64,000 bases of DNA from a phage. The notes under the pieces are model-generated. The model was not told the DNA's origin, made no database searches, and saw nothing but the letters and a program-made list of their open reading frames with translations. The position numbers and the translations under genes are program-made. Each line of letters starts with the position of its first letter. Position 1 is the stretch's first letter. Shown piece after piece: positions 2,771-62,185 of the stretch. The stretch lies in the NCBI GenBank assembly GCA_036439915.1, contig GCA_036439915.1_3065.1; one strand, 5' to 3'.

Positions 2771-3169
2771 TTATACTCTATTACTAGAAGCCAGTTGCAG
2801 TTTTATCTGCTCAATATCATCAGGGTTATCAATGACCGAAAAGCGTATTTCTACTATCAGAGTATAATCATCATAAACCGGTATTACATTAACTGCTAAT
2901 TTATCAATACGTGGCTCGTAGTTTCTTACTGCGCTTTCAATGTTACGCTCAACAGTATCAGCAGTAAGAGGAGTCATATTCTCAAAAAGTTGATCAGATA
3001 AATCGCATCCAAATTCTGGGTCAAATGGCCTTGACCCTTTCCTGGTTGTAATAATTCCCAAAAGGCTATTTTTAATTGACCTTAATCCAAGAGATCTGGA
3101 AACGTCTTTGTCCCAATCCATTTTCATTTCTGGGTCAATGTCAGAATAAAGCTTATTAATATTTGCCAT
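2771..3169 (-). CDS. 25: baseplate wedge protein gp25
   Basis: 132-aa ORF recognised as T4 gp25. Confidence 0.9.
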   Translation of the reverse strand: MANINKLYSDIDPEMKMDWDKDVSRSLGLRSIKNSLLGIITTRKGSRPFDPEFGCDLSDQLFENMTPLTADTVERNIESAVRNYEPRIDKLAVNVIPVYDDYTLIVEIRFSVIDNPDDIEQIKLQLASSNRV

Positions 3170-3795
3170 TACAATAGCTCAAAGAATTCTTTGAGTCCTC
3201 TTATTACATGAGCGTGAGTTTTTCCACACTCTGGACACTTAATTGGAACAGCCAAATAAACAGTAGGCTTTAAAAGCATATCTTTTATAGCTACAATATC
3301 TGACTCTGTGATGATAGAATATAAATCTTCCAACTCTTTTTCATTTAAGTCTTCAATTGGAATGCTTTCCCCGTTAGCATGAATTGTTTCTATACATGAT
3401 ACTATCATGTGGGCTATATTTTTATCATCAAAAATTTTAGGGTAATGGAACTTAATTTTAATGTCACCCAGTGTATACCAGAGGTCTTCTGGTGCATCTA
3501 TTTGCGTATGTAATAGATTTATATGGGTTGGTATTTCAGTTCCGCAGGTGCACTTCCAGGAGTTTTCGTGATTAACTTCCCCAAGAGAATGCGCCCATAA
3601 ATGAATCAACAAGAGTTCTGATTCTTGGCGGTTCAAATCTTTTGCATTTGTACAGTCTTTAATTAGCTTTTTAACGATCTCTTCGACTGAACCATTCTTT
3701 TTAGCAGTAATAAGTTCTAGATATTCTTTAAGAGTAAATGCGCGACAGTTGATTATTTTAGAACCAACTCTCACGTCAAATTTGTATTCATACAT
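3169..3795 (-). CDS. 26: baseplate hub protein gp26
   Basis: 208-aa ORF; position and length match T4 gp26. Confidence 0.85.
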
Positions 3796-10424: not shown

Positions 10425-10466
10425 TCAGTAAGATTATTATAACACAACACGAGGGACTTGTAAACT
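10425..10466 (-). promoter_or_regulatory. T4-type early promoter (GTTTAC -35, TATAAT -10)
   Basis: minus strand reads GTTTACAAGTCCCTCGTGTTGTGTTATAAT; near-identical copy at 26220-26260. Confidence 0.6.
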
Positions 10467-12522
10467 ACATTTTGAACTTTTTAGACATTCCGTTGATATT
10501 AACCAAAGAAGCCAAGATTTGAGAAACTTCGTTTTCCTCTTCTTTTGATTCTTCTACAAGGAATTGATTAAATCCAGCCATTGGACGAACTTCACCAGTT
10601 TCCATTAGATGGTCGCCATCATATACCGATTCTTCTAATTGTTCAGAAGGAGGAACGATTGTGCCTTCGATTAGATACTTGTTATAAGCAGTTTCTTTCA
10701 TCATGTACGTACTCACTTTATTAATCTTCAGCAAAATTCCACGCGGTAGAATAACTTCAGCTTCTGATGGAAATCCTGATAAATGTCCTGGAACGATAAC
10801 TTTGATTCGCTCAGCTCCTTTAATTACCATACCCACGCTAGTTTCAGCATCTTCATTGGCATACGCAGAATGACTACCCATATGCATTAAATCTTCAGCG
10901 TCAACAGAACCTTCTCCTTCACCAGAAAATACTGCACTGGAATCATCTAGGGCCATATAGTTTTTACCATACTCACCGAAGATATTTGGTTTAAGCGATG
11001 TGGATACGAAGTTCTTGAAATAGAACATTTTATTTTCAATATTATGACGTAAAGTTTTAAAGGTAACTTCTTGGCCACGGTAAAGCGTAGTTCCTGGAGG
11101 AAGAACTGATCCTTTGGCAAAAGCAGAATCCATCGTCTCGATGTGTTTAATAGCTCGTTCCATATATTCTTCACGGGTAGAATCCGGTTTACCTAAAAGG
11201 AACGAGTTCATTTCAACATATGAATCTGCACAATAATCTTCAATTACATCAGACTCAGCCTGAGTTAATCCTTTTGGGGGTACTTCAGTACTTGCATATT
11301 CATACGCTTGAGAAGCAGACTCATTAATCAATTTATAAACGCCATTCATGACAAATTGAATAATAGCTACCTTTTCATCTGGCGTGGCTTTAGAACCTTT
11401 AACTAAATCATTGACAATTTTCTTAATAACATCAAAGCTATTAGAAATATTAATGTCAGCAAGATCACTTAAAATTTTATCAGTTTTATAATCAAAAAAT
11501 TCTTTATTCTTTAAATATTCTTGAGAACCTTGATATGATATATCGCTCTGTAACTTGATAGATGGATCACGTAAACGCGCATGAGCCAATGCAATATGAT
11601 TTCGGAAGCTTTCTAATTCATAATCACTAGATTTAAAACGGGAAGCACTTCTCATACCACCGATAGCTCCTTTGCTGAAGTTTGAACCAACCTGAATAAC
11701 GCCGGAGTTCATTGGTCCTTCTGCTTTATATACCGGAACTTTAGATTCAAACTCTTGGTATTTCTTAGCAGCGAAGCTATCACCCTGAAGCGAAGCATCG
11801 ACAGTAGAATATTGAGCTTGTGCTGCTAATCGACGACTAATTTTAGTTTTCTGAATAACAGCTTGATCCGTGCGCTTATCATTTTCTAAAGCAATAGAAG
11901 CGGCAACAGCGACAGCTTTAGGAACAGCATTACCTGTTTTAACATCTACATAAACATCACCAACCTTTGATTCAACTTTTGTGAATAACTCAGTTGAAAT
12001 AGGAGGTACACCTGGAATGTCTTCTAAATTGGCATTTTTACGGTAAACCATAATATATGCATATTTCTTATCATAGTCCCAGATTTCTTTTAAAAGAACA
12101 TATCGACCTGCTCCTTTAGTACGTACTAAACGGTCAGCAATAACTTGAATTTGTCGAGCTGCGCCATTTGTTTTACTCTTTAGTACGCGGAATAAGCATG
12201 CGTCAATTTTGTACTGTTTCATTGTCTGAAGAGCAGTATCAAAAACCGCATTAATGGCACCAATTGGATTTCCACCCAAGTTTTTAAGTTTAACTAATGA
12301 TAGTTTCTCATTGACACCTATCATTACGATATGCATCATTTTATCGCCTGGCTTAACGTTTTTGTTTGTATCACCGCCAGAGGTGTATGTACAAAATCTA
12401 AATCCAGGAAGCACGCTTTCTTCACCTGCTTGAATAGCAAAAATTTGAGGTATTTTATGCTTAGGATTTAAGTTAACAACCGGCGCCGAAGCGCCGTCAA
12501 ATAATTCTGTAATAAGTTCCAT
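10465..12522 (-). CDS. Alt-like ADP-ribosyltransferase, second paralog
   Basis: 685-aa ORF; N-terminal ~230 aa closely similar to adjacent Alt; R (LYRG), STS (FVSTSL) and ExE (SEAEV) motifs. Confidence 0.85.
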   Translation of the reverse strand: MELITELFDGASAPVVNLNPKHKIPQIFAIQAGEESVLPGFRFCTYTSGGDTNKNVKPGDKMMHIVMIGVNEKLSLVKLKNLGGNPIGAINAVFDTALQTMKQYKIDACLFRVLKSKTNGAARQIQVIADRLVRTKGAGRYVLLKEIWDYDKKYAYIMVYRKNANLEDIPGVPPISTELFTKVESKVGDVYVDVKTGNAVPKAVAVAASIALENDKRTDQAVIQKTKISRRLAAQAQYSTVDASLQGDSFAAKKYQEFESKVPVYKAEGPMNSGVIQVGSNFSKGAIGGMRSASRFKSSDYELESFRNHIALAHARLRDPSIKLQSDISYQGSQEYLKNKEFFDYKTDKILSDLADINISNSFDVIKKIVNDLVKGSKATPDEKVAIIQFVMNGVYKLINESASQAYEYASTEVPPKGLTQAESDVIEDYCADSYVEMNSFLLGKPDSTREEYMERAIKHIETMDSAFAKGSVLPPGTTLYRGQEVTFKTLRHNIENKMFYFKNFVSTSLKPNIFGEYGKNYMALDDSSAVFSGEGEGSVDAEDLMHMGSHSAYANEDAETSVGMVIKGAERIKVIVPGHLSGFPSEAEVILPRGILLKINKVSTYMMKETAYNKYLIEGTIVPPSEQLEESVYDGDHLMETGEVRPMAGFNQFLVEESKEEENEVSQILASLVNINGMSKKFKM

Positions 12523-12525
12523 GAT

Positions 12526-14622
12526 TTATCCTTGAACGAACTTGTAAGGCATGTTTGTAATATCTATGCAAGACGCAATAATTCCGAGAGATGATTCTGC
12601 TTTCTGTTTAACATTTGATGAAACAAATGATGCAAAGTCAACTCTGTCTTCTATTTCAATATCATCTGTCATTGCAACTACTTCACCAGTTTCCATTAGA
12701 CGGTCACCGTCATAAATTACTGATTCGGTGAGTTCTTCCGTAGTCATAACTTCAGTTTGAATGAGTTTTGTATTATTAGATGTTGTTCCGTCATTATTAG
12801 AAGCATCAGTTATTTTATTAACTTTGACCATCAATCCGCGTGGTAGAATTACTTCAGCTTCTGTTGCTATTCCGAGACTTCCTGGATATACAACATTAAC
12901 TTTATGAGCTCCATCAATTGCCCATCCTATTTGAACTTTAACGTATTCAGGATTTTCTTTATACGCTCTTATTTCGTTTGGATTAATAGTTATTCCTTCT
13001 TCATTTTTATCAACTGTTAATTCATTACGAGCTTCTGGTTCTAAAAGACCGATACCAGCATGTGTAATTCCAAAACGTCCAAAAATGATAGGAGTTAAAG
13101 AAGTAGATACAAAATTTCTGAAATAGAACACTTTATTTTTAACTAGCGCTTCGTATATAGGAGCAGTCATACTTTGAGCACGATAAACTGTAATGCCTTC
13201 TGGTATACGGTCACCATTTTCAAAAGCTGAATCTAAATTATTTATCGCAGATTCAATTTCTTTTTCACTCATTACATCATATCGTTCTGGATTGTAACGA
13301 CCCAAAAGAAGATTATTGATGTCAGTATATCCTGAACCACAATACTCTCTAATGCCGCGCTTTTGTGATGGAGTATATTTAGAACCATCACGGGCAATAG
13401 TAATATCAATCATTGGACCTGCACCAATTCCAGAAAAGCTATAAATCATTCGTTTGAGGAATTTAGTTTTTGCTGCGTTCCAGGAATTTTTAGTTATTTC
13501 TTCCCAGACTTCATCTGACTGCCCTTTACGGGTTTTATTATGTTTATCAAGCCAATTATCTTTATATTCTTCAAAGAATTTATTAATAGCTGCTGCATAC
13601 TTCTCTAAACATTTTATTGAAGTGGTTGGTTCATTTTTAATCGCATTGAGAATTACATCTTTAATTTTTTCAGAAACTTCATTAACCTCACTTTTTGAAA
13701 AGAATTTATAGTCATAGTGAAGTTCATCTGCGGTTCCTTCGGCAATAATTTTTGCTGCCTTAGTTTTAGAAGCTAATGAATTAATTCCAAGCTTCATTTC
13801 TTCTGCTTCGGGAATTAAAGGAGCTGTAGCAGGTTTATTGAAATTAGCTGCGGTAGATTCATATTTCTGGAATAATTCGCTTTCAAATCTAGAAGATTCT
13901 AATGACTGACTTTGCGCAATTGCTCTACGGGAAATTTTAACTTTAACGATTACAGCTTGGTCAGAACGTTTATCATTTTCTTGCGCAATAGATGCAGCAA
14001 TTGCCTCATTTTTAGTTACTTGAGCTCCAGTATCTTTATTGATATAAACATCGCCGACTTTCGATTCAACTTTAGTAAAGAGCTCGGTACTAATTTCCGG
14101 AACTCCTGGAATGTCTTCTAGTGATACATTTTTGCGATGTATAAGAATATATGCATACTTTTTATCATAATCCCAGAGTTCCTTAAGAAGGACGTATCTT
14201 CCACCTGAACGACTACGGATAAGTCTATCAGCAATAACTTGAATTTGTCGAGCTTGACCAGCAGTTTTAGACTTAAGAATACGGAGCATACAGGCATCAA
14301 TTTTATACTGACGCATCGTCTGCATTGCAACAGTAAAAACTGAATTGATGTAATTAATTGGGCTTGGACCGAGACCTTTTAATTTAGCAATTGAACCTTT
14401 AGCAGTTAATGTAAAAGGAACAATATGCATCATTTTATCGCCCATTTTTAAATCGCGATTAGTATCACCTCCAGATGTATAGGTACATAAACGAAAGCCT
14501 GGTTGTTCAATTGCGTCATCAACGTGAACTGAAAAAATTTGTGGTATTTTCTTCTTTGGATTTAAGTTTGTAATCGGAAGAGTAGTATCTTCGTCAAATA
14601 ATTCTGTAATAAGTTCCATCAT
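12526..14622 (-). CDS. alt: Alt ADP-ribosyltransferase (virion-packaged, modifies host RNA polymerase)
   Basis: 698-aa ORF adjacent to ligase as in T4; R (VYRAQ), STS (FVSTSL), ExE (TEAEV) motifs. Confidence 0.9.
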   Translation of the reverse strand: MMELITELFDEDTTLPITNLNPKKKIPQIFSVHVDDAIEQPGFRLCTYTSGGDTNRDLKMGDKMMHIVPFTLTAKGSIAKLKGLGPSPINYINSVFTVAMQTMRQYKIDACMLRILKSKTAGQARQIQVIADRLIRSRSGGRYVLLKELWDYDKKYAYILIHRKNVSLEDIPGVPEISTELFTKVESKVGDVYINKDTGAQVTKNEAIAASIAQENDKRSDQAVIVKVKISRRAIAQSQSLESSRFESELFQKYESTAANFNKPATAPLIPEAEEMKLGINSLASKTKAAKIIAEGTADELHYDYKFFSKSEVNEVSEKIKDVILNAIKNEPTTSIKCLEKYAAAINKFFEEYKDNWLDKHNKTRKGQSDEVWEEITKNSWNAAKTKFLKRMIYSFSGIGAGPMIDITIARDGSKYTPSQKRGIREYCGSGYTDINNLLLGRYNPERYDVMSEKEIESAINNLDSAFENGDRIPEGITVYRAQSMTAPIYEALVKNKVFYFRNFVSTSLTPIIFGRFGITHAGIGLLEPEARNELTVDKNEEGITINPNEIRAYKENPEYVKVQIGWAIDGAHKVNVVYPGSLGIATEAEVILPRGLMVKVNKITDASNNDGTTSNNTKLIQTEVMTTEELTESVIYDGDRLMETGEVVAMTDDIEIEDRVDFASFVSSNVKQKAESSLGIIASCIDITNMPYKFVQG

Positions 14623-14650: not shown

Positions 14651-14656
14651 AAATTA

Positions 14657-14674
14657 AAGGCCCGAAGGCCTTTA
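14657..14674. terminator. GC hairpin aaaggcccgaaggccttt
   Basis: perfect inverted repeat with cgaa loop between 62-aa ORF and alt. Confidence 0.45.
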
Positions 14675-14860
14675 ATAATCTAGTGGTAAGAGAGTACGAT
14701 ATATTTCAAACTTTGGCCCTTTTTCATAGGCATCAAATGTTTCTGTAAATTTATTATAAGCATATGCATCTACAAATTCAAGAACGATTTGTGATACAGA
14801 AGTAGAAACATCTCCACCTTCTTTTTGAGCCACGACAATTGTTTCTAAGTAAGCTTTCAT
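14672..14860 (-). CDS. hypothetical protein between gene 30 and alt
   Basis: 62-aa ORF overlapping ligase stop by 4 nt. Confidence 0.6.
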   Translation of the reverse strand: MKAYLETIVVAQKEGGDVSTSVSQIVLEFVDAYAYNKFTETFDAYEKGPKFEIYRTLLPLDY

Positions 14861-18554: not shown

Positions 18555-18595
18555 AATATTTTCCTCAGTAAGGGGCCGAAGCCCCTCATTTTATT

Positions 18596-19440: not shown

Positions 19441-19467
19441 AATAAAAAAGGACTCCCGAAGGAGTCC
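19441..19467 (-). terminator. intrinsic terminator downstream of 30.9-like ORF
   Basis: ggactcc-cgaa-ggagtcc hairpin followed on minus strand by T run. Confidence 0.75.
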
Positions 19468-19472
19468 TCAAC

Positions 19473-25704: not shown

Positions 25705-26201
25705 AAAGTTTTAATAACCTCTATAATATCGTCTTGAGAAAGACCGTTAATTAAAATATGATGTTCAGCTGGAGATTTAGAAATTTTAAAGCATGCCTCA
25801 ACATCTTCTGCCATATCCGATGCACTACGATTTGGATTACTAATTCCAAGACGATGTTTTCCCGTCAAAGGATTAACGATGATATAGCATTTGCAGCTAT
25901 TGATATGAACATTAGGCTGAGTCTGATTAATGAATACTTCGCACTCATACTTAGCGAGTTGATTTTCTAAAAAGACTTTCATCTCCTCAACCGCATCAGG
26001 AAGCATATCACGGGCTTGCTCAAGACGACGATTTCGATATTCTTTAATGGTCGTTTTCCGTTTGACTTGCTTAGCTAAATCTTTCTTAAGATCGGTGATA
26101 TATCCAACTCGACGATTTCCTTTAAATACAGAAATCCCATCCGTAGTATCACCGTATGCTTCAACAACCATTTCAGTAGTAATAAGCTGCAAATCCATCA
26201 T
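25695..26201 (-). CDS. alc: Alc transcription terminator protein
   Basis: 168-aa ORF recognised as T4 Alc. Confidence 0.85.
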   Translation of the reverse strand: MMDLQLITTEMVVEAYGDTTDGISVFKGNRRVGYITDLKKDLAKQVKRKTTIKEYRNRRLEQARDMLPDAVEEMKVFLENQLAKYECEVFINQTQPNVHINSCKCYIIVNPLTGKHRLGISNPNRSASDMAEDVEACFKISKSPAEHHILINGLSQDDIIEVIKTLCM

Positions 26202-26219
26202 AAAGTCCTCATGTTATGT

Positions 26220-26260
26220 CAGTAAAACTACTATAACACAACACGAGGGACTTGTAAACA
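26220..26260 (-). promoter_or_regulatory. T4-type early promoter upstream of alc
   Basis: GTTTAC -35 and TATAGT -10; near-identical to copy at 10425-10466. Confidence 0.6.
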
Positions 26261-26262
26261 GC

Positions 26263-27850
<1,588 letters not shown>

Positions 27851-27858
27851 AATAAAAT

Positions 27859-27872
27859 GGGCCTTGCGGCCC
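27859..27872 (-). promoter_or_regulatory. GCAA-tetraloop hairpin between nrdB stop and denA start
   Basis: gggcc-gcaa-ggccc 8 nt upstream of denA AUG; only SD-like AAGGAG lies 5' of the hairpin. Confidence 0.5.
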
Positions 27873-27877
27873 ACTCC

Positions 27878-29056
27878 TTAAAAGTATTTTTTAAAACTCA
27901 TCATAACTTTATCATCAACATCATTATCAATCTGTGCAACAAGATAAGATGACAGTTCTACTTCTTGTGGCGCGGATTGAACATTATCAGAATTAAGGTA
28001 TTCACGAATCCAAGGATATGGATGTTTAACCGGAGCATCGGTAATTGGGCATGGAAGACCACACTGTTTCATACGAGATACAGTTAAATAATCAATAAAG
28101 CTCCACATGCTATTTGTATTTAATCCAGGAACATCGCCATCTTTAAATAAATGAACTGCCCAATCTTTTTCTTGGCGGTTAACTTCCATGAAAATATCAA
28201 CTGCTTCTTGTTCACACTCTTGAGCAATTTTAACCCATTCATCACCATCAGTGCCAAGTTGAAGTTGACGAATAATATACTGGGTGCCTTTAAGGTGAAG
28301 CTGCTCATCACGTGCAATGAACTTCATAATCTTCGCATTACCTTCCATGATTTCCATATTTTTATGGAAGTTGAAAGTACATGCAAAGGATACATAAAAA
28401 CGAATAGCTTCCAGGGCATTGATAACATGAAGGCAGAGATAAAGCGACTTCATCAATGCATATTTACATTCTTCCACATGCATAAGACTATTTGAATATG
28501 CATCTAAATCATATTCATTTTCGGAAAAACATTTAAAAATTTCTTTTGCATTTTCCCATTCGCGCGTCTTAACCAGAACATCATCATAATAACGACCAAT
28601 AGATTCAGCACGTTTCATGATAGCTTTATCTAATACAATCTCATCAAATACCTTTGACGGATCAGTATAAAGATTTCGCATAATATGAGTGTATGAACGA
28701 CTGTGAATAGTTTCACTAAAAGTCCATGTAGCAACCCATGTATCAAGACTTGGGTCTGAAATTAACGACATAAGTACAGCAGACGGTGCACGACCCTGAA
28801 TGCTATCTAGAAGTGATTGATACTTCAGGTTATTAGTAAAAATATCTTGCTGATATTGAGGAAGCTTGTTAAATTGCGCAGCATCCATCATTAAGTTTAC
28901 TTCTTCAGGACGCCAGAAAAATGACAATTGCTTTTCGGTTAAATCTTCAAAAACTTTATGACGTTGAATATCATAACGCGCAATACCAAGACCTGAACCG
29001 AAGAACATAGGTTCTTTTAAAACATCAACTGGATTTGTATTAAAAACTGTGCTCAT
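27878..29056 (-). CDS. nrdB: ribonucleotide reductase beta subunit, intron-less
   Basis: contiguous 392-aa ORF recognised as T4 NrdB. Confidence 0.93.
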   Translation of the reverse strand: MSTVFNTNPVDVLKEPMFFGSGLGIARYDIQRHKVFEDLTEKQLSFFWRPEEVNLMMDAAQFNKLPQYQQDIFTNNLKYQSLLDSIQGRAPSAVLMSLISDPSLDTWVATWTFSETIHSRSYTHIMRNLYTDPSKVFDEIVLDKAIMKRAESIGRYYDDVLVKTREWENAKEIFKCFSENEYDLDAYSNSLMHVEECKYALMKSLYLCLHVINALEAIRFYVSFACTFNFHKNMEIMEGNAKIMKFIARDEQLHLKGTQYIIRQLQLGTDGDEWVKIAQECEQEAVDIFMEVNRQEKDWAVHLFKDGDVPGLNTNSMWSFIDYLTVSRMKQCGLPCPITDAPVKHPYPWIREYLNSDNVQSAPQEVELSSYLVAQIDNDVDDKVMMSFKKYF

Positions 29057-29107
29057 AAATTTTCCGCTTAGTTAATAGTTGGTGACTCGTCCGTGAGTCA
29101 AATTATA

Positions 29108-31372
29108 TCATAATTTACAGGATGAACAATCTTCAGCTTTTGGAGTTTCTATTTCATAATCATCAGTACCAGAACCGTCACGGGTATTATGATAATAGAA
29201 ATTTTTTCCGCCAAAATACCAAAAATACAAAAGGTCATCAATCATTATTGACATTGGAACCTTTCCTTTTGGAAAAATCTGTGGGTCATAATATGTATTC
29301 GCCGAAGCTGATTGACAAACCCATTTCAGCATAATAGCTACCTGCGTAAGATAAGGTTTATTACCTTTCTTAGCTAATTTCCATGTATAATCATAAAGGT
29401 CTATGTTATGCTCAATATTGGGCACGACTTGATTAAAGGAGCCCTCTTTTGATTCTTTAACAGAGACTGGTCCACGTGGAGGCTCGATACCGTTTGTACT
29501 GTTAGAAACTTGGGAAGATGACTCACATGGCATAAGTGCTGATAATGTGCTATTACGGATGCCAAAGAGCTTAAGGTCTTCCCGCAGCGACGACCAGTCA
29601 CAAACGTATTTTGGAGCTGCGATTTGGTCAATCTTTTTATTGTACCAGTCGATAGGTAATTCGCCTCGAGACCAACGAGTGTCTGAATAATATTCACAAG
29701 GTCCTTTTTCTTTGGCGAGTTTAATGGATGCTTTAATGAGTCCATACTGTAATCTCTCAAATAGTTCATGTGTTAAATCGTTAGCATCTTCATAAGAAGC
29801 AAAGTTACTTGCCAACCAAGCTGCATAGTTAGTAACACCTACACCGAGGTTACGACGCTTTTTAGCTTTTTCTGCTTCAGGAACTGGATATCCTTGGTAA
29901 TCCAAAAGATTATCAAGAGCACGAACCTGGACTTCTGCCAATTCATTAATTTTATCTTGGTCTTGCCAGTCAAAATTATCCAGTACGAATGCAGAGAGAG
30001 TACACAATCCAATTTCAGCATCAGGACTATTCACATCATTTGTTGGAATAGCAATTTCACAGCACAAGTTACTCTGACGAATAGGTGCCTTTTCACGAAT
30101 AAACGGAGTATAGTTATTCGTATTATCAATGAACTGTACATAAATCCTTGCTGTTCCTGAGCGTTCAGTCATGAGCAATTCAAATAGTTCACGAGCTTTA
30201 ATACGCTTTTTACGAATATTAGGGTCTTTTTCTGCGGCTTCATACAATTCACGGAAACGGTCTTGGTCTTTAAAATAAGAATAATAAAGCTCTCCGCCCA
30301 TTTCATGGGGACTGAACAAAGTAATGTAATCGTTCTTTCCGAATCGTTCCATCATCAAATCATTCAGCTGAACACCATAATCCATATGACGAATGCGGTT
30401 TTCTTCTACGCCTTTGTTATTTTTCAAAACAAGAAGATTTTCAACTTCCAAATGCCAAATAGGATAATAAGCAGTAGCAGCGCCGCCACGAATTCCACCC
30501 TGTGAGCATGATTTAACAGCAGTCTGAAAATGTTTCCAAAAAGGAATAACACCAGTATGGCGTACTTCACCCATGCCAATCTTAGAACCTTCAGCACGAA
30601 TCATACCAACGTTAATACCAATTCCAGCGCGTTTAGAGATATATTCAACAATTGAAGCGGAAGCCTTATTGATAGACTTTAATGAATCACCTGCCTCAAT
30701 AACAACGCATGAACTAAACTGCCGGGTTGGAGTACGGCAACCAGCCATAATAGGAGTTGGCAATGAAATCTGTCGAGTAGATACTGCTTCATAAAAACGG
30801 ATAACGTGTTTTAATCTATCAACAGGTTCATCTTGATGCAATGCCATTCCAATAGTCATAAATGCAAACTGTGGAGTTTCATAAATTTGACCAGTGGTTT
30901 TATCTTTAACTAGATATTTTTCTTTTAATTGCATCGCCCCGGAATAAGTAAATTCCATATCCCGCTCGTGCTTAATTTTTGATTCTAAAAATGTAATTTC
31001 TTCTGCAGAATATTTTGACAACAATTCAGGGTCGTATTTACCTTCATTTACACAGTAAGAAATATGGTCAATAAATGAACGTGGTTCATACTGCCCATAA
31101 ACATGCTTACGAAGAGCAAACATTAAACAGCGTGCAGCTACATATTGATAATCAGGTTCTTCAACCGAAATAGAATTCGCAGCGGCCTTAATGACAATAG
31201 TCTGAATATCATCAGTTGTCATTCCATCACGGAGATATGATTTAATATTTTCATATAATTCATAAGGATCTACAGATGTTCCTTCAGCTGCCCAAGATAA
31301 AACTTTAATAATTTTTTGCGGGTCAAAGCTCTGAGAAACACCACTACTTTTGATAACATTAATTAATTGCAT
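29108..31372 (-). CDS. nrdA: ribonucleotide reductase alpha subunit
   Basis: 754-aa ORF recognised as T4 NrdA. Confidence 0.95.
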   Translation of the reverse strand: MQLINVIKSSGVSQSFDPQKIIKVLSWAAEGTSVDPYELYENIKSYLRDGMTTDDIQTIVIKAAANSISVEEPDYQYVAARCLMFALRKHVYGQYEPRSFIDHISYCVNEGKYDPELLSKYSAEEITFLESKIKHERDMEFTYSGAMQLKEKYLVKDKTTGQIYETPQFAFMTIGMALHQDEPVDRLKHVIRFYEAVSTRQISLPTPIMAGCRTPTRQFSSCVVIEAGDSLKSINKASASIVEYISKRAGIGINVGMIRAEGSKIGMGEVRHTGVIPFWKHFQTAVKSCSQGGIRGGAATAYYPIWHLEVENLLVLKNNKGVEENRIRHMDYGVQLNDLMMERFGKNDYITLFSPHEMGGELYYSYFKDQDRFRELYEAAEKDPNIRKKRIKARELFELLMTERSGTARIYVQFIDNTNNYTPFIREKAPIRQSNLCCEIAIPTNDVNSPDAEIGLCTLSAFVLDNFDWQDQDKINELAEVQVRALDNLLDYQGYPVPEAEKAKKRRNLGVGVTNYAAWLASNFASYEDANDLTHELFERLQYGLIKASIKLAKEKGPCEYYSDTRWSRGELPIDWYNKKIDQIAAPKYVCDWSSLREDLKLFGIRNSTLSALMPCESSSQVSNSTNGIEPPRGPVSVKESKEGSFNQVVPNIEHNIDLYDYTWKLAKKGNKPYLTQVAIMLKWVCQSASANTYYDPQIFPKGKVPMSIMIDDLLYFWYFGGKNFYYHNTRDGSGTDDYEIETPKAEDCSSCKL

Positions 31373-31689
31373 AAGTCCTCAACTTGAAAATCGTCTTTAA
31401 ACAATCGGTTAACTATATGAGCTATTATATCACCATGACACGGCTTTGGTTTACATGTGCATCCTAGCCTCATTCCACGTAAAGGCTCTAAATGTGCTTT
31501 AGTTATTTCTCCGGATTTAATTCGACGTATAAAATCTTTTTTGAATAATTCAATGGCAGCCTCCCGGCTGCCAGCATCTTTACCGACGTAATTTCCCCAA
31601 AATGTACCACGGTGAATATTAACATCAAAGTCGGATTTATATTTATTCACTACCCGGCATAGACTGCCCGCGCGGTTGTAGGTGTTCAT
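31363..31689 (-). CDS. hypothetical protein (nrdA.1 position)
   Basis: 108-aa ORF. Confidence 0.65.
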
Positions 31690-31918
31690 ATTGTTCTTCC
31701 GTTAAAACAGTAATATCGTAGTAACAGTCAGAAGAAGTTTTAACTGTGGAAATTTTATTATCAAAATACTCACGAGTCATTTTATGAGTATAATATTTTT
31801 TGCCATAAATGATAATAGGCTGATTTGGTCCTGGAACTTCTAACTCACTTGGATTAGGAAGTGTAAAAAGAACTACACCAGAAGTATCTTTAAATCGTAA
31901 AATCATATATCCTCGCAA
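31643..31918 (-). CDS. hypothetical protein (nrdA.2 position)
   Basis: 91-aa ORF. Confidence 0.6.
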
Positions 31919-31926
31919 TAATAAAA

Positions 31927-32787
31927 TTACACCGCCATCTTTCCTTTAATAGGAGGATGTGATTCATAGTTGTTAAGAACAAAATTATGAGGCTTTGCAA
32001 ATTGACTCAACCAAAATACCTGCGATTCTGTGTCCCATTCATCAAATTCATCTGGAAATTTTAATTGTAATTCGCATAAATCCATAGGTTCACGACATAA
32101 AATTTCTTTACATTGTTCTACGTGATTCATATAGATATGAGTATTACCACCAGAAAATATCAAATCTCCCGGAATAAGATTACACATTTTAGCTACAATA
32201 TGAACTAACGTAGCATATGATGCAATATTAAATGGAAGACCGAGGAAAACATCTACCGAACGTTGATACCACTGAAGGTCAAGGTATCCATTACGCACAT
32301 TAAACTGATAGAACATGTGACAAGGCGGTAATGCCATTTGCTTGAGTTCAGCTGGATTCCATGCTGAAACAACTTGACGTCTATCATTTGGCAGTTTTTT
32401 AATACGATCAATAACTTCTACAATTTGGTCTACACCGCCAAAATCACGCCACTGTTTTCCATAAATTGGACCAAGTTCACCGCTATGGTATCCTAAATCT
32501 TTTGCTTGATTTTCGTAATTTTCATCCCAGACTGTTTTGCCTTGAATTAATGAATCATGTTGAATTAATCGCAAATCATTTACATTTGTGCTTCCTGATA
32601 AAAACCATATTAGCTCAGCAATGCATGCATTCCAGGCGAGCTTTTTAGTTGTTACTGCAGGAAAACCTTTAGTTAAATCCCAACGCAATTTAGTACCGAA
32701 CAGAGCAATTGTTCCTGTGCCTGTTCGGTCATCAGTTTCATAACCATTTTCAAAAATGTCTTTAATTAAATCTTGGTATTGTTTCAT
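31927..32787 (-). CDS. td: thymidylate synthase, intron-less
   Basis: contiguous 286-aa ORF recognised as T4 Td. Confidence 0.95.
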
Positions 32788-47864: not shown

Positions 47865-47869
47865 AATGA

Positions 47870-47883
47870 GGGGCTTCGGCCCC
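47870..47883 (+). terminator. UUCG-loop hairpin between genes 37 and 38
   Basis: ggggc-ttcg-gcccc directly before GGAGG RBS of gene 38; no T tract. Confidence 0.4.
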
Positions 47884-47895
47884 TTGGAGGTTTAT

Positions 47896-48669
47896 ATGGC
47901 AGTTGAAGGACCGTGGGTAGGATGGTCTGCGAGGGTACAAACTGGAGACCCTTGGATGGGTGGTGCCGCACAGAGATTGAGAATGGGAATTCCGTTTTGG
48001 ATGAGTAATATGATAGGTCGATCTGTTGAAGTAATTCACACGCTTGGAGCAGACCATAACTTCAATGGTCAATGGTTCCGAGATAGATGTTTTGAGGCAG
48101 GTAGTACACCTATAGTGTTTAATATCACTGGAGATTTAGTATCATATTCTAAAGATGTTCCTTTATTCTTCATGTACGGAGATACACCGAATGAATATGT
48201 TCAGTTGAATATACACGGCGTAACGATGTATGGACGTGGCGGGAATGGCGGTAGCAATAGTCCCGGATCGGCTGGGGGTCATTGTATTCAAAATGATATT
48301 GGTGGAAGACTAAGAATTAATAATGGCGGAGCTATTGCAGGCGGCGGTGGCGGCGGCGGCGGCGGTAACTACGGTAGACTATCATTTGGTGGTGGTGGTG
48401 GTCGCCCATTCGGTGCTGGCGGGTCTTCCTCTCATATGGGTGCTGGTGCAACCGCTGGCACCATTTCCGCTCCGGGTGCAGGATCTGTCGGTAAGGGGTC
48501 TCTTTGGGTATATACAGGCGGGAATGGCGGTGAAGTTGGCTCAGCAGGAGGTAGATGTAATATTCATGGGAACGGTACAGAATATAACGGTGGTGCTGCT
48601 GGTTATGCCGTCATAGGGTCTACACCGACATGGCAAAACGTTGGAGCAATATATGGTCCAAGAGTATAA
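47896..48669 (+). CDS. 38: T2-type receptor-recognising adhesin gp38
   Basis: 257 aa from MAVEGPW; conserved N-terminus, glycine-rich motifs, poly-Gly run. Confidence 0.85.
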
Positions 48670-52181: not shown

Positions 52182-52207
52182 AAAAAAGGGAGAGCCTCGG
52201 CTCTCCC
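52182..52207 (-). terminator. intrinsic terminator
   Basis: gggagagcc-tc-ggctctccc hairpin followed on minus strand by TTTTTT. Confidence 0.75.
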
Positions 52208-52213
52208 TAAAAA

Positions 52214-53985: not shown

Positions 53986-54066
53986 TCACTGGCGTCCGAA
54001 GACGCCTTTAGTTTTAAAATTATTACGATAGAACTGCATCACATGTTCGTTATGGAAATTACTCAT
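53986..54066 (-). CDS. stp: Stp peptide (activator of host PrrC anticodon nuclease)
   Basis: manually translated 26-aa [29 protein letters not shown] recognised as T4 Stp; start overlaps ndd stop. Confidence 0.8.
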
Positions 54067-56644: not shown

Positions 56645-56680
56645 AAACAAAAGGGCCGAAGCCCTTATTTTATTTGAATT
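56645..56680. terminator. bidirectional hairpin aagggccgaagccctt
   Basis: GC stem with cgaa loop flanked by T/A runs on both strands; a near-identical hairpin occurs about 220 bp downstream. Confidence 0.6.
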
Positions 56681-56864: not shown

Positions 56865-56892
56865 AATTTTCCTTAGTTAAGGGCCGAAGCCC

Positions 56893-57831
56893 TTATTTAA
56901 ATTGTTCAGTAACGTCTTCAATTACTTCGTATTGGCAGGTACGCATTTTAGCGTCGTTGTAATCAATCGGAATTGATACTACATCACGAGGATGAACTTT
57001 AACTTTTACAACTCGGCTGGTTGAACCACCGAAGTGACGAATATAAGATTTAGAACACACATGCAGACCACGAGAACAAGTTTGTGTATCATCGTCATTC
57101 ACACGAGTACGCGGCATTTTAACTACTTTACCAGGACTGTTATCAAAGGTATTTGAGTGACAGTCAAAGTAATTGCTACGAACTACTTTCCAAGCATAGA
57201 AGTAACCATCTTCTGTAATTTCAATATCGTTTGCTACCAAGAAATCAAAAAGTCGAGATACCGCTTTCTGGCTTGGGTTTTCCAGCAGATTTTCCAAGAA
57301 CGGAAAATAAAATTCAAAGTTTTCGCCTTTTTCCATCGAATCAAGAATACGATCAACCAAACCAGACCGCAATTCAATATTTTGATAGAATAAGCTTCCA
57401 CCTTCAATTCGAACTTCGCCGGAAATATATTTTTCAACAGCGCGACGAACATTAATTTTTTGTGCCGCTTCTTCCAGCTTATCCGCTACAAGCAGATTGA
57501 GAATTTCCTGGAAGTTTGAATGAGTATTAGGCGTTGCATTATAAGTTACACCATCAACAGTAATCGAAATGAATTTTTTAGATGCATTCCAAATAATGTC
57601 AGATTTAGCAACTGGAGCAATAACTGCATCGCTATTAACTTTAACTGTAATATCACCGCTAATAGTAATTTTAGAGTGTTTAGCTTCTTCAGCATTTTTC
57701 AAAACACGACGGATTGTATCAACCGATACACCTTGCCAATCAGCCAATTCTTGCTGAGTATAATTACCGCTTGAATACAGTTTAACAATTTCAGCTTGTT
57801 CATTTTTGGTCAGGCATTTAATATTGTACAT
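56893..57831 (-). CDS. rIIB: rIIB membrane-associated protein
   Basis: 312-aa ORF, same length as T4 rIIB. Confidence 0.9.
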   Translation of the reverse strand: MYNIKCLTKNEQAEIVKLYSSGNYTQQELADWQGVSVDTIRRVLKNAEEAKHSKITISGDITVKVNSDAVIAPVAKSDIIWNASKKFISITVDGVTYNATPNTHSNFQEILNLLVADKLEEAAQKINVRRAVEKYISGEVRIEGGSLFYQNIELRSGLVDRILDSMEKGENFEFYFPFLENLLENPSQKAVSRLFDFLVANDIEITEDGYFYAWKVVRSNYFDCHSNTFDNSPGKVVKMPRTRVNDDDTQTCSRGLHVCSKSYIRHFGGSTSRVVKVKVHPRDVVSIPIDYNDAKMRTCQYEVIEDVTEQFK

Positions 57832-62154: not shown

Positions 62155-62185
62155 AGCTAAAGGCCCGAAGGCCTTTTATTTAAAA
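62155..62185. terminator. GC hairpin aaaggcccgaaggccttt
   Basis: perfect inverted repeat with flanking T/A tracts, between lipoprotein ORF and gene 39. Confidence 0.55.

What the first reader, a model, noticed from the sequence alone, without database searches (positions are those of the whole stretch)
27851..27880. Split ribosome-binding site for denA bridged by a GNRA hairpin
The only Shine-Dalgarno-like sequence for denA (AAGGAG, overlapping the nrdB stop) lies about 23 nt upstream of the AUG, with a perfect hairpin gggcc-gcaa-ggccc in between. Folding would bring the SD to normal spacing, the mechanism reported for some T4 genes. Followed by AUUUUAUU, the same hairpin could also act as the nrdB terminator, coupling termination and denA translation.
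Basis: inference. Interest (0 to 1): 0.4.

Follow-up and report, generated by a model that had tools for sequence, protein, structure and literature searches.

The report
Hairpin-bridged ribosome site for denA
Between the ribonucleotide reductase gene nrdB and the nuclease gene denA of this T4-like phage, a small and very stable RNA hairpin sits between denA's ribosome-binding sequence and its start codon, the same layout already proven for two other T4 genes, so it is a probable third example of a known trick, not a new mechanism.

Summary
On the minus strand the RNA reads UAAGGAG-U-GGGCC-GCAA-GGCCC-A-UUUUAUU-AUG. The nrdB stop overlaps a strong Shine-Dalgarno (SD) sequence. A 6-bp GNRA hairpin follows at once, and the denA AUG lies 23 nt from the SD, or 7 nt if the hairpin is looped out.

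The hairpin is under selection. In 23 distinct nrdB-denA junctions from about ten Tevenvirinae genera, 95.6% of pair cells are paired and 4 of 6 pairs show compensatory changes. An AGG/GGA motif always sits 0-3 nt 5' of the stem. No SD-like motif ever lies 3' of it. Effective spacing stays at 6-13 nt (median 7).

The layout is almost a twin of the T4 gene 37-38 junction. A blind scan of the window recovers only denA and gene 25, a published split ribosome-binding site.

The tail after the stem is also U-rich (64% against 31% background), so a leaky terminator or 3'-stabiliser role for nrdB is likely as well. No promoter-like site lies within about 420 nt upstream of the denA AUG, so termination cannot be complete.

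The AUG start, not the GUG used in the T4 reference record, is the conserved one.

Verdict: a new member of a known kind. Interest is modest.

The parts
27878..29056 (-). nrdB coding sequence (ribonucleotide reductase small subunit, 392 aa, no intron); stop codon UAA at 27880-27878
   Evidence: ORF list; annotation of the identical JY01 region
27874..27880 (-). UAAGGAG: Shine-Dalgarno sequence overlapping the nrdB stop codon. Duplex with the 16S rRNA 3' end is -7.8 kcal/mol. It lies 23 nt upstream of the denA AUG.
   Evidence: Sequence; duplex energy and spacing; UAAGG nearly invariant across 23 junction variants
27858..27873 (-). Hairpin UGGGCC-GCAA-GGCCCA: 6 bp, of which 5 are G-C, with a GNRA tetraloop at 27867-27864; -11.6 kcal/mol
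   Evidence: Folding; covariation in 23 junction variants: 95.6% paired, 4 of 6 pairs with double changes, 0 of 500 shuffles as good
27851..27857 (-). UUUUAUU: the 7-nt U-rich spacer between hairpin and AUG. It serves as the effective SD-AUG spacer and also looks like a short terminator U tract.
   Evidence: Sequence; 64% U in 24 junction variants against 31% in other genes' -8..-1; spacer length 6-10 nt in all variants
27440..27850 (-). denA coding sequence (endonuclease II, a GIY-YIG nuclease, 136 aa), starting at AUG 27850-27848
   Evidence: ORF list; PDB 2WSH uses this N-terminus; N-terminus conserved from M-K across genera
27872..27874 (-). In-frame GUG used as the denA start in the T4 reference annotation (144 aa); judged not to be the real start
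   Evidence: AF158101.6 and T4T annotation. The GUG abuts the SD with zero spacing and lies in the stem. An in-frame start at -24 is present only in Tequatrovirus (GUG) and one other clade (AUG).

Best explanation
The element is an intercistronic hairpin that has been built into the denA ribosome-binding site.

nrdB and denA are transcribed together. The only usable SD for denA (UAAGGAG) overlaps the nrdB stop codon. A fast-folding, very stable tetraloop hairpin follows it directly. When the hairpin is folded, its 16 nt are looped out of the 30S mRNA track. The SD then sits about 7 nt from the AUG instead of 23 nt, and initiation can occur. This is the mechanism shown experimentally for T4 genes 38 and 25.

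The same hairpin plus its U-rich tail most likely also acts as a weak, leaky intrinsic terminator or 3'-end stabiliser for nrdB mRNA. That would make denA, a nuclease, less abundant than NrdB.

Shown here: the sequence layout, hairpin stability, covariation, conserved SD position, conserved effective spacing, absence of any alternative SD, and identity of layout with the proven cases.

Inferred: that translation of denA actually depends on the folded hairpin, and that partial termination occurs there.
For: 1. Layout and energies.
2. Covariation: in 23 distinct junctions from Tequatro-, Mosig-, Slopek/Jiaoda-type, Kagamiyama-, Gelderland-, Winkler-, Gapriver- and Kanagawavirus plus unnamed IMG/VR lineages, 95.6% of cells are paired and 4 of 6 pairs carry compensatory changes. 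The covariation score is 0.50 against 0.17 in shuffles (0 of 500) and at most 0.24 in slid controls.
3. The loop is always an extra-stable type or a near variant: cUUCGg in most, GCAA or GUAA in Tequatrovirus, and UUUG, UUAG or a pentaloop in single lineages. This argues for a structural role and against a sequence-specific protein site.
4. An AGG/GGA motif lies 0-3 nt 5' of the stem in every variant. It survives even where the stop changes to UAG (L092).
5. No segment 3' of the hairpin pairs with the anti-SD (duplex energy never better than -0.1 kcal/mol).
6. Linear spacing is 22-27 nt. Effective spacing is 6-13 nt, median 7.
7. Complementary distribution: where the hairpin lies further from the AUG, a canonical SD appears downstream of it (Karamvirus L012, Krischvirus L013). 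Where there is no hairpin, the genes overlap as AUGA (L040, Aeromonas phages).
8. The T4 gene 37-38 junction, a proven split site, reads UAAGGAG-A-GGGGC-UUCG-GCCCUUC-UAAAU-AUG, almost the same design (PMC3014915).
9. An unbiased scan of the window finds only denA and the published gene 25 site, with 0.1 expected.
10. DenA protein is listed with a 'late' protein class in published T4 proteomics tables, which implies it was detected, so the gene is translated (PMC9697503 supplement).
11. Terminator side: the tail is 64% U against 31% background. A rough terminator score is +24.7 in this phage. Terminators are annotated here in some GenBank records.
Against: No experiment on this junction was found or could be run.

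In naked RNA, the predicted minimum-free-energy fold pairs GGAG with UUUU and part of the AUG region with the end of nrdB. The predicted probability that the SD is unpaired is 0.20, and 0.02-0.77 in relatives. The structure could therefore mask the site instead of presenting it.

The SD overlaps the nrdB stop, so re-initiation by terminating ribosomes could explain denA translation without any need for bridging.

Sequences in the comparison are related, so some conservation of spacing may reflect shared ancestry. However, the flanks themselves vary freely.

The terminator score is positive in only 8 of 23 variants. Two lineages have no U tract at all.
Confidence: 0.55

Rival explanations
1. 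The hairpin is only the intrinsic terminator or 3'-protective hairpin of nrdB mRNA, one of many such intercistronic hairpins in T-even genomes. denA is translated at a low level from read-through transcripts by ribosomes that terminate at the nrdB UAA and re-initiate 27 nt downstream. The SD retains them, but the hairpin's folding is not required.
For: The window holds 17 such hairpins, most directly after stop codons. The tail is U-rich and the terminator score is positive here. GenBank terminator annotations exist. The stop codon overlaps the SD. In lineages without the hairpin, denA is coupled to the upstream gene by an AUGA overlap, which shows that coupling is a normal way to express denA. 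A similar short-U-tract hairpin in T4 mobE terminates 30-50% of transcripts (PMC2790892).
Against: Every other stop-proximal hairpin in the window that precedes a gene is followed by its own SD. Only here is the SD on the 5' side, and this holds in every one of the 26 junction variants seen. The hairpin-to-AUG distance is held at 6-10 nt, a constraint a pure terminator would not need. L045 and L046 keep the hairpin but have no U tract. The terminator score is negative in 15 of 23 variants.
Confidence: 0.25
2. The structure is inhibitory. An extended helix (GGAG paired with UUUU, CUUUUA paired with UGAAAG) masks the SD and AUG. denA is translated only when a ribosome finishing nrdB melts it, that is, translational coupling by unmasking. 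This keeps the nuclease strictly proportional to NrdB.
For: The minimum-free-energy fold of the 44-nt junction is -18 kcal/mol against -11.6 for the core hairpin, with SD and AUG partly paired. In several lineages AAGGA can pair with CUUU or UUUAUU. A ribosome at the UAA would cover the 5' arm; this follows from general knowledge of the ribosome footprint.
Against: The extension consists almost only of G-U and A-U pairs, and its partners change from lineage to lineage with no compensatory pattern. Predicted SD accessibility ranges from 0.02 to 0.77. The proven enhancer case, T4 gene 38, shows the same kind of weak flanking pairing, so this pairing does not distinguish the two models.
Confidence: 0.12
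3. denA starts at the GUG inside GGAGUG, as in the T4 reference annotation, giving a 144-aa protein. The hairpin would then be coding sequence and there would be no split ribosome-binding site.
For: AF158101.6 and T4T annotate it this way. The GUG is in frame.
Against: The GUG shares its G with the SD, so spacing is zero, and its U and second G are paired in the stem. An in-frame upstream start exists only in Tequatrovirus and one other clade. Several lineages have in-frame stops at -9 to -24. Protein conservation begins at M-K. The crystallised, active-site-numbered enzyme is the 136-aa form.
Confidence: 0.03
4. The GGAG or the AU-rich tail is a processing site, for RegB within GGAG or for RNase E in AUUUUAUU next to a hairpin. 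Cleavage would separate nrdB from denA and inactivate denA mRNA.
For: RegB cuts GGAG/U in intergenic regions of early transcripts, mostly at translation initiation regions (PMC3014915). The hairpin would protect the new nrdB 3' end.
Against: Strong RegB sites match GGAGRAYARAA, which this site does not, and secondary structure protects against RegB (PMC3014915). GGAG is replaced by GGAC, GGAA or GGAU in most genera while the architecture persists.
Confidence: 0.05

Closest known systems
T4 gene 38 translation initiation region (gene 37-38 junction)
   Same: The stop codon of the upstream gene overlaps UAAGGAG. A GC-rich extra-stable tetraloop hairpin follows at once, and the AUG lies 5-8 nt after the stem. 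Linear spacing is 22 nt against 23 nt here. Both pass the same objective scan. Reported to reduce spacing from 22 to 5 nt and to need the structure for efficient initiation (PMC3014915).
   Different: The loop is UUCG in gene 38 and GCAA here, although denA junctions of other genera use UUCG. Gene 38 is a late gene and denA a pre-replicative one. The tail is UAAAU there and U-rich here. The denA case has not been tested experimentally.
[quoted passage not shown]
   Same: The SD (GAGG) lies 27 nt from the AUG and is bridged by a hairpin. The site is present in this very window (about 3200-3167, minus strand) and was recovered by the same scan. Its conservation is restricted to T-even-type phages, as here (PMC3014915).
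   Different: The gene 25 hairpin is AU-rich (CUCAAAG-AAUU-CUUUGAG, -6.4 kcal/mol) and lies inside the coding end of gene 26. It has no terminator-like features.
T-even intercistronic cUUCGg/GNRA hairpins and weak intrinsic terminators (for example the T4 mobE internal terminator)
   Same: Same kind of short GC stem with an extra-stable tetraloop placed just after a stop codon and often followed by U residues. There are 17 in this window. The mobE hairpin terminates 30-50% of transcripts (PMC2790892).
   Different: In the other cases the next gene's SD lies downstream of the hairpin. At denA the SD lies upstream, so the hairpin sits inside the ribosome-binding site.
Translational coupling by overlapping stop and start (AUGA)
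   Same: This is used for denA itself in lineage L040 and in Aeromonas phages. Here too the SD overlaps the upstream stop.
   Different: Here stop and start are 27 nt apart, with a stable hairpin between them.

Membership tests
Split (hairpin-bridged) Shine-Dalgarno site, as in T4 genes 38 and 25 | A good SD lies too far from the start codon to work in linear form (more than about 15 nt) | tested here: met
   UAAGGAG, -7.8 kcal/mol, 23 nt from the AUG
Split (hairpin-bridged) Shine-Dalgarno site, as in T4 genes 38 and 25 | No alternative SD at normal spacing | tested here: met
   The best 6-mer at 4-12 nt scores -3.0 kcal/mol (AAGG inside the stem). Nothing 3' of the hairpin scores in any of 23 variants.
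Split (hairpin-bridged) Shine-Dalgarno site, as in T4 genes 38 and 25 | The intervening sequence forms a stable local hairpin that brings effective spacing to about 5-11 nt | tested here: met
   16-nt hairpin at -11.6 kcal/mol; effective spacing 7 nt; median 7 across variants
Split (hairpin-bridged) Shine-Dalgarno site, as in T4 genes 38 and 25 | Structure maintained in relatives by compensatory changes | tested here: met
   95.6% paired, 4 of 6 pairs with double changes, 0 of 500 shuffles as good
Split (hairpin-bridged) Shine-Dalgarno site, as in T4 genes 38 and 25 | Destabilising the hairpin lowers translation and compensatory changes restore it | not testable with these tools
   Needs reporter fusions or toeprinting. 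No publication on denA was found.
Split (hairpin-bridged) Shine-Dalgarno site, as in T4 genes 38 and 25 | The start codon downstream of the hairpin is the true start | tested here: met
   The AUG is conserved in all lineages and the upstream GUG is not. PDB 2WSH uses the 136-aa protein. No direct N-terminal data for the native protein were found.
Rho-independent (intrinsic) terminator | GC-rich hairpin immediately followed by a U tract | tested here: met
   6-bp stem followed by UUUUAUU. The rough d'Aubenton-Carafa-type score is +24.7. The tool's own scan missed it, probably because G-U extension of the stem consumes the U tract; that reason is my inference.
Rho-independent (intrinsic) terminator | The U tract is conserved together with the hairpin in relatives | tested here: inconclusive
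   The tail is 64% U against 31% background. But the score is positive in only 8 of 23 variants, and L045 and L046 lack a U tract.
Rho-independent (intrinsic) terminator | Transcript 3' ends map to the U tract | not testable with these tools
   No 3'-end map of T4 transcripts was found. Complete termination is excluded by inference, because the scans found no promoter-like site closer than about 420 nt upstream of the denA AUG.
Rfam RNA families | A match above the gathering score | tested here: not met
   Only a chance-level L20_leader match: 24.7 bits against a gathering score of 58.7, E = 0.14

The most novel reading that the evidence does not exclude
The hairpin is a single device that couples three events. 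A ribosome sitting on the nrdB stop codon covers the 5' arm and so suppresses intrinsic termination. When that ribosome leaves, the hairpin snaps shut. The 30S subunit, still held by the stop-overlapping SD, is placed directly on the denA AUG. Nuclease synthesis would then be set by how tightly nrdB translation follows transcription. The same design at the T4 gene 37-38 junction would make this a reusable module in T-even phages.
Probability: 0.15. Interest if true: 0.55.

Novelty: new member of a known kind. Interest (0 to 1): 0.33.

Why it matters
If confirmed, denA would be the third T4 gene with a hairpin-bridged ribosome-binding site. It would be the first in a pre-replicative gene, and the first where the bridging hairpin also looks like the upstream gene's terminator.

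The architecture is kept, with compensatory changes, across about ten genera. That gives a ready-made natural mutant series for studying how a structured spacer is accommodated on the 30S subunit.

In practical terms, the evidence argues that the T4 reference annotation of denA (GUG start, 144 aa) is wrong. It also shows that gene finders and ribosome-binding-site calculators that use linear SD spacing will mis-score such starts.

Tried and rejected
- **Rfam.** A scan of 26000-32000 gave only chance-level matches.
- **Tool terminator scan.** It did not flag the site. The likely reason, which I inferred, is that G-U extension of the stem uses up the U tract. A hand-made score with the Watson-Crick core does flag it.
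- **First automated feature table.** The table was unusable, because minimum-free-energy folding swallowed the SD and the tail. I replaced it with a core-stem definition.
- **Stop-codon read-through giving an NrdB-DenA fusion.** The stop is in frame with the AUG here, but the frame relation is not conserved across genera. Rejected.
- **GUG start.** Rejected.
- **RegB site.** It does not match the strong-site consensus, and GGAG is not conserved (PMC3014915).
- **Promoter between hairpin and denA.** None was found: no late promoter, no middle-promoter-like pattern, and no sigma-70-like site closer than about 420 nt upstream of the AUG.
- **Literature.** Searches for any statement on the nrdB-denA junction, on denA translation, or on 3'-end maps of T4 transcripts found nothing specific. 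The T4 genome review (PMC150520) and the nrdA/nrdB transcript paper (PMC526816) are not held.
- **Proteomics intensities for DenA.** They could not be read because the stored supplementary table is cut.
- **JY01 annotation.** Its coordinates could not be transferred to the whole window because of insertions and deletions elsewhere. Only 36 of 70 gene starts mapped exactly.

Full report
**What is there.** The window is a Tequatrovirus. Positions 27650-28100 are 100% identical to Escherichia phage JY01 and 96.5-99% identical to most of the roughly 500 close T4-type relatives, including T4, T2 and T6. nrdB (29056-27878) and denA (27850-27440) lie on the minus strand. The junction RNA reads UAAGGAG-U-GGGCC-GCAA-GGCCC-A-UUUUAUU-AUG.
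- The nrdB stop is at 27880-27878.
- AAGGAG is at 27879-27874.
- The hairpin is at 27873-27858, with the GNRA loop GCAA at 27867-27864.
- The U-rich tail is at 27857-27851, and the AUG at 27850-27848.

Twenty-three nucleotides separate the SD from the AUG. Seven remain if the 16-nt hairpin is looped out. The core hairpin is worth -11.6 kcal/mol and the SD-anti-SD duplex -7.8 kcal/mol.

**Is the hairpin real?** I collected nrdB-denA junctions from annotated phage genomes and from IMG/VR contigs.
- Twenty-three distinct variants were aligned. Three more turned up later.
- The six-pair helix is paired in 95.6% of cells, and four of six pairs show changes on both sides.
- The covariation score is 0.50, against 0.17 +/- 0.03 in shuffles (0 of 500 reach it) and at most 0.24 when the 3' arm is slid.
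- Stems differ freely: GGGCC, GGGGC, GGGAC, GGGAGAC, AAAGGGC and GAGGGC.
- The loop is almost always cUUCGg. It is GCAA or GUAA in Tequatrovirus.

Selection is therefore on a compact, very stable hairpin, not on a sequence that a protein might read.

**Which other features are conserved?** In every variant an AGG/GGA motif, usually UAAGGA, lies 0-3 nt 5' of the stem.
- It persists in L092, where the stop codon has become UAG.
- No segment between hairpin and AUG pairs with the anti-SD. The best duplex energy there is never better than -0.1 kcal/mol.
- Linear SD-AUG spacing is 22-27 nt. After subtracting the core hairpin it is 6-13 nt, median 7. The stem-to-AUG distance is 6-10 nt, although the tail sequence varies (UUUUAUU, CUUUAGU, UUGCCC, GUAAAGCU).

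The distribution across lineages is complementary.
- In Karamvirus CkP1 and Krischvirus MIZ4 the hairpin is further from the AUG, and a normal SD (GAGG, GAGGAAAGGA) lies downstream of it.
- In lineage L040 and in Aeromonas phages there is no hairpin, and denA overlaps the upstream gene as AUGA.

**Comparison with the proven cases.** The review PMC3014915 names two T4 genes, 38 and 25, in which a hairpin between SD and AUG reduces the spacing (22 to 5 nt and 27 to 11 nt). In both, destabilising mutations lower initiation.
- The T4 gene 37-38 junction reads UAAGGAG-A-GGGGC-UUCG-GCCCUUC-UAAAU-AUG. Like denA, it has a stop-overlapping UAAGGAG, an immediate GC tetraloop hairpin, and an AUG a few nucleotides later.
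- The gene 26-25 junction is in this window (GAGG at 3200-3197, AUG at 3169-3167, 27 nt apart).

I then ran a blind scan of both strands for ATG-initiated ORFs of at least 60 codons. The criteria were: no SD at 4-12 nt; a Watson-Crick hairpin of -5 kcal/mol or better ending 4-11 nt before the ATG; and an SD of -5 kcal/mol or better within 3 nt of the stem.
- Of 454 ATGs, 371 lacked a canonical SD.
- Exactly two met all criteria: denA and gene 25.
- Shuffled upstream regions gave 0.1 hits per replicate.
- The T4 gene 38 leader passes the same test.

**How this hairpin differs from its neighbours.** Perfect GC-rich tetraloop hairpins are about 9-fold enriched in the window: 17 against 1.9 +/- 1.3 in shuffles. 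Those that precede a gene show the order stop-hairpin-SD-AUG. Examples are the starts at 1585, 18535-side, 47896, 53978-side and 56640-side. This phage's T2-type gene 38 is among them: AGGGGC-UUCG-GCCCCU-UGGAGGUUUAU-AUG. Among the hairpins that directly precede a gene start, denA is the only one with the SD on the 5' side, and it is the only hairpin with a GNRA loop. Of 36 gene starts that could be mapped, 28 have a canonical SD. denA is one of eight that do not.

**Terminator component.** The tail between stem and AUG is 64% U in 24 variants, and 71% in its first four positions. Other genes' -8..-1 are 31% U and the genome is 32%.
- A rough d'Aubenton-Carafa-type score is +24.7 for this phage. 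It is positive in only 8 of 23 variants, and L045 and L046 have no U tract.
- Two GenBank records annotate a terminator on the hairpin.
- No sigma-70-like site lies on the minus strand between 28272 and denA. There is also no late promoter or middle-promoter-like pattern near the junction. denA must therefore be transcribed through the hairpin.
- DenA protein appears in published T4 proteomics classification tables.

Termination, if it happens, must be partial. The 9-bp, short-U-tract mobE hairpin of T4 terminates 30-50% of transcripts (PMC2790892). That suggests a 6-bp stem with four U residues would be no stronger; this is my inference.

**Start codon.** The T4 reference record AF158101.6 and T4T start denA at the GUG inside GGAGUG, giving 144 aa.
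- That GUG shares its first G with the SD, and its U and second G are paired in the stem.
- An in-frame upstream start exists only in Tequatrovirus and one other clade. Several lineages have in-frame stops 9-24 nt upstream of the AUG.
- Protein conservation begins at M-K.
- The crystallised enzyme (2WSH, numbering E118) is the 136-aa form.

The AUG is the supported start. No direct N-terminal data for the native protein were found.

**Points against, and rivals.** In naked RNA the minimum-free-energy fold extends the stem by pairing GGAG with UUUU through G-U pairs. It also pairs CUUUUA at the end of nrdB with UGAAAG at the start of denA (-18 kcal/mol).
- The predicted probability that the SD is unpaired is 0.20 here and 0.02-0.77 in relatives. 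The pairing partners change between lineages and show no compensatory pattern.
- The proven gene 38 leader shows similar weak flanking pairs, so this pairing does not separate 'presenting' from 'masking'.
- Because the SD overlaps the nrdB stop, re-initiation by terminating ribosomes may contribute or even suffice.
- RegB cleavage is unlikely. The strong-site consensus GGAGRAYARAA is not met, and GGAG is not conserved.

**Verdict.** The hairpin is real and under selection; I rate this near certain. I put a probability of about 0.55 on its being the bridging element of a split ribosome-binding site for denA, very probably combined with a leaky terminator or stabiliser role for nrdB. The main alternative, at about 0.25, is a terminator hairpin with denA expressed by re-initiation that does not depend on the fold. 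This is a new member of a known kind. The held literature names only genes 38 and 25, and my searches found nothing on denA.

Noticed in passing
window 27872-27874 (minus strand); L053 (T4 AF158101.6) 1218-1652; L004 (T4T): The T4 reference record and T4T annotate denA from a GUG 24 nt upstream of the conserved AUG, giving 144 aa instead of 136. The GUG lies inside the SD and hairpin and is not conserved in other genera, so this looks like a mis-annotated start.
   Followed up: yes
window about 3167-3200, minus strand: The published gene 26-25 split ribosome-binding site is present: GAGG, then the hairpin CUCAAAG-AAUU-CUUUGAG, then the AUG 27 nt from the SD. I used it as an internal positive control.
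   Followed up: yes
window 47869-47898, plus strand: This phage carries the T2-type gene 38. The gene 37-38 junction keeps a GGGGC-UUCG-GCCCC hairpin, but the SD (GGAGG) lies downstream of it. In T4, the same junction is a split site with the SD upstream. The hairpin has stayed while the gene and the SD position changed.
   Followed up: partly
whole window; for example 1558-1573, 14653-14676, 18571-18586, 19449-19468, 52187-52208, 53991-54006, 56651-56666, 56878-56895, 62159-62176: There are 17 perfect GC-rich tetraloop hairpins (mostly cUUCGg on the coding strand) against about 2 expected. Most sit right after stop codons and just before the next gene's SD or a late promoter. Several share the same stem (AGGGGC/GCCCCU or AAGGGC/GCCCUU), so they could also serve as short recombination repeats.
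   Followed up: partly
L040 / L085 (IMG/VR contig 2974786931), denA start: One lineage with 73% DenA identity has lost the intergenic hairpin entirely. There nrdB and denA overlap as UUAUGA, that is, classical translational coupling.
   Followed up: partly
window 29057-29107 and nrdB 27878-29056: nrdB has no intron here, and the nrdA-nrdB gap is only 51 nt. This phage therefore lacks the group I intron with I-TevIII, and also mobE and nrdB.1, all of which T4 has.
   Followed up: no
window 10442-14596, minus strand (JY01 annotation, coordinates approximate): Two adjacent genes of about 2.1 kb each are both annotated as Alt-like RNA polymerase ADP-ribosyltransferases. The T4 gene table I saw lists one alt gene at the corresponding place.
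   Followed up: no
window 27843-27969, minus strand: A weak Rfam match to the ribosomal protein L20 leader: 24.7 bits against a gathering score of 58.7, E = 0.14. I treat it as chance.
   Followed up: no
window 27848-27880: The nrdB stop codon is in frame with the denA AUG (30 nt apart) in this phage and in several other lineages, but not in all. Read-through fusion was considered and rejected.
   Followed up: yes
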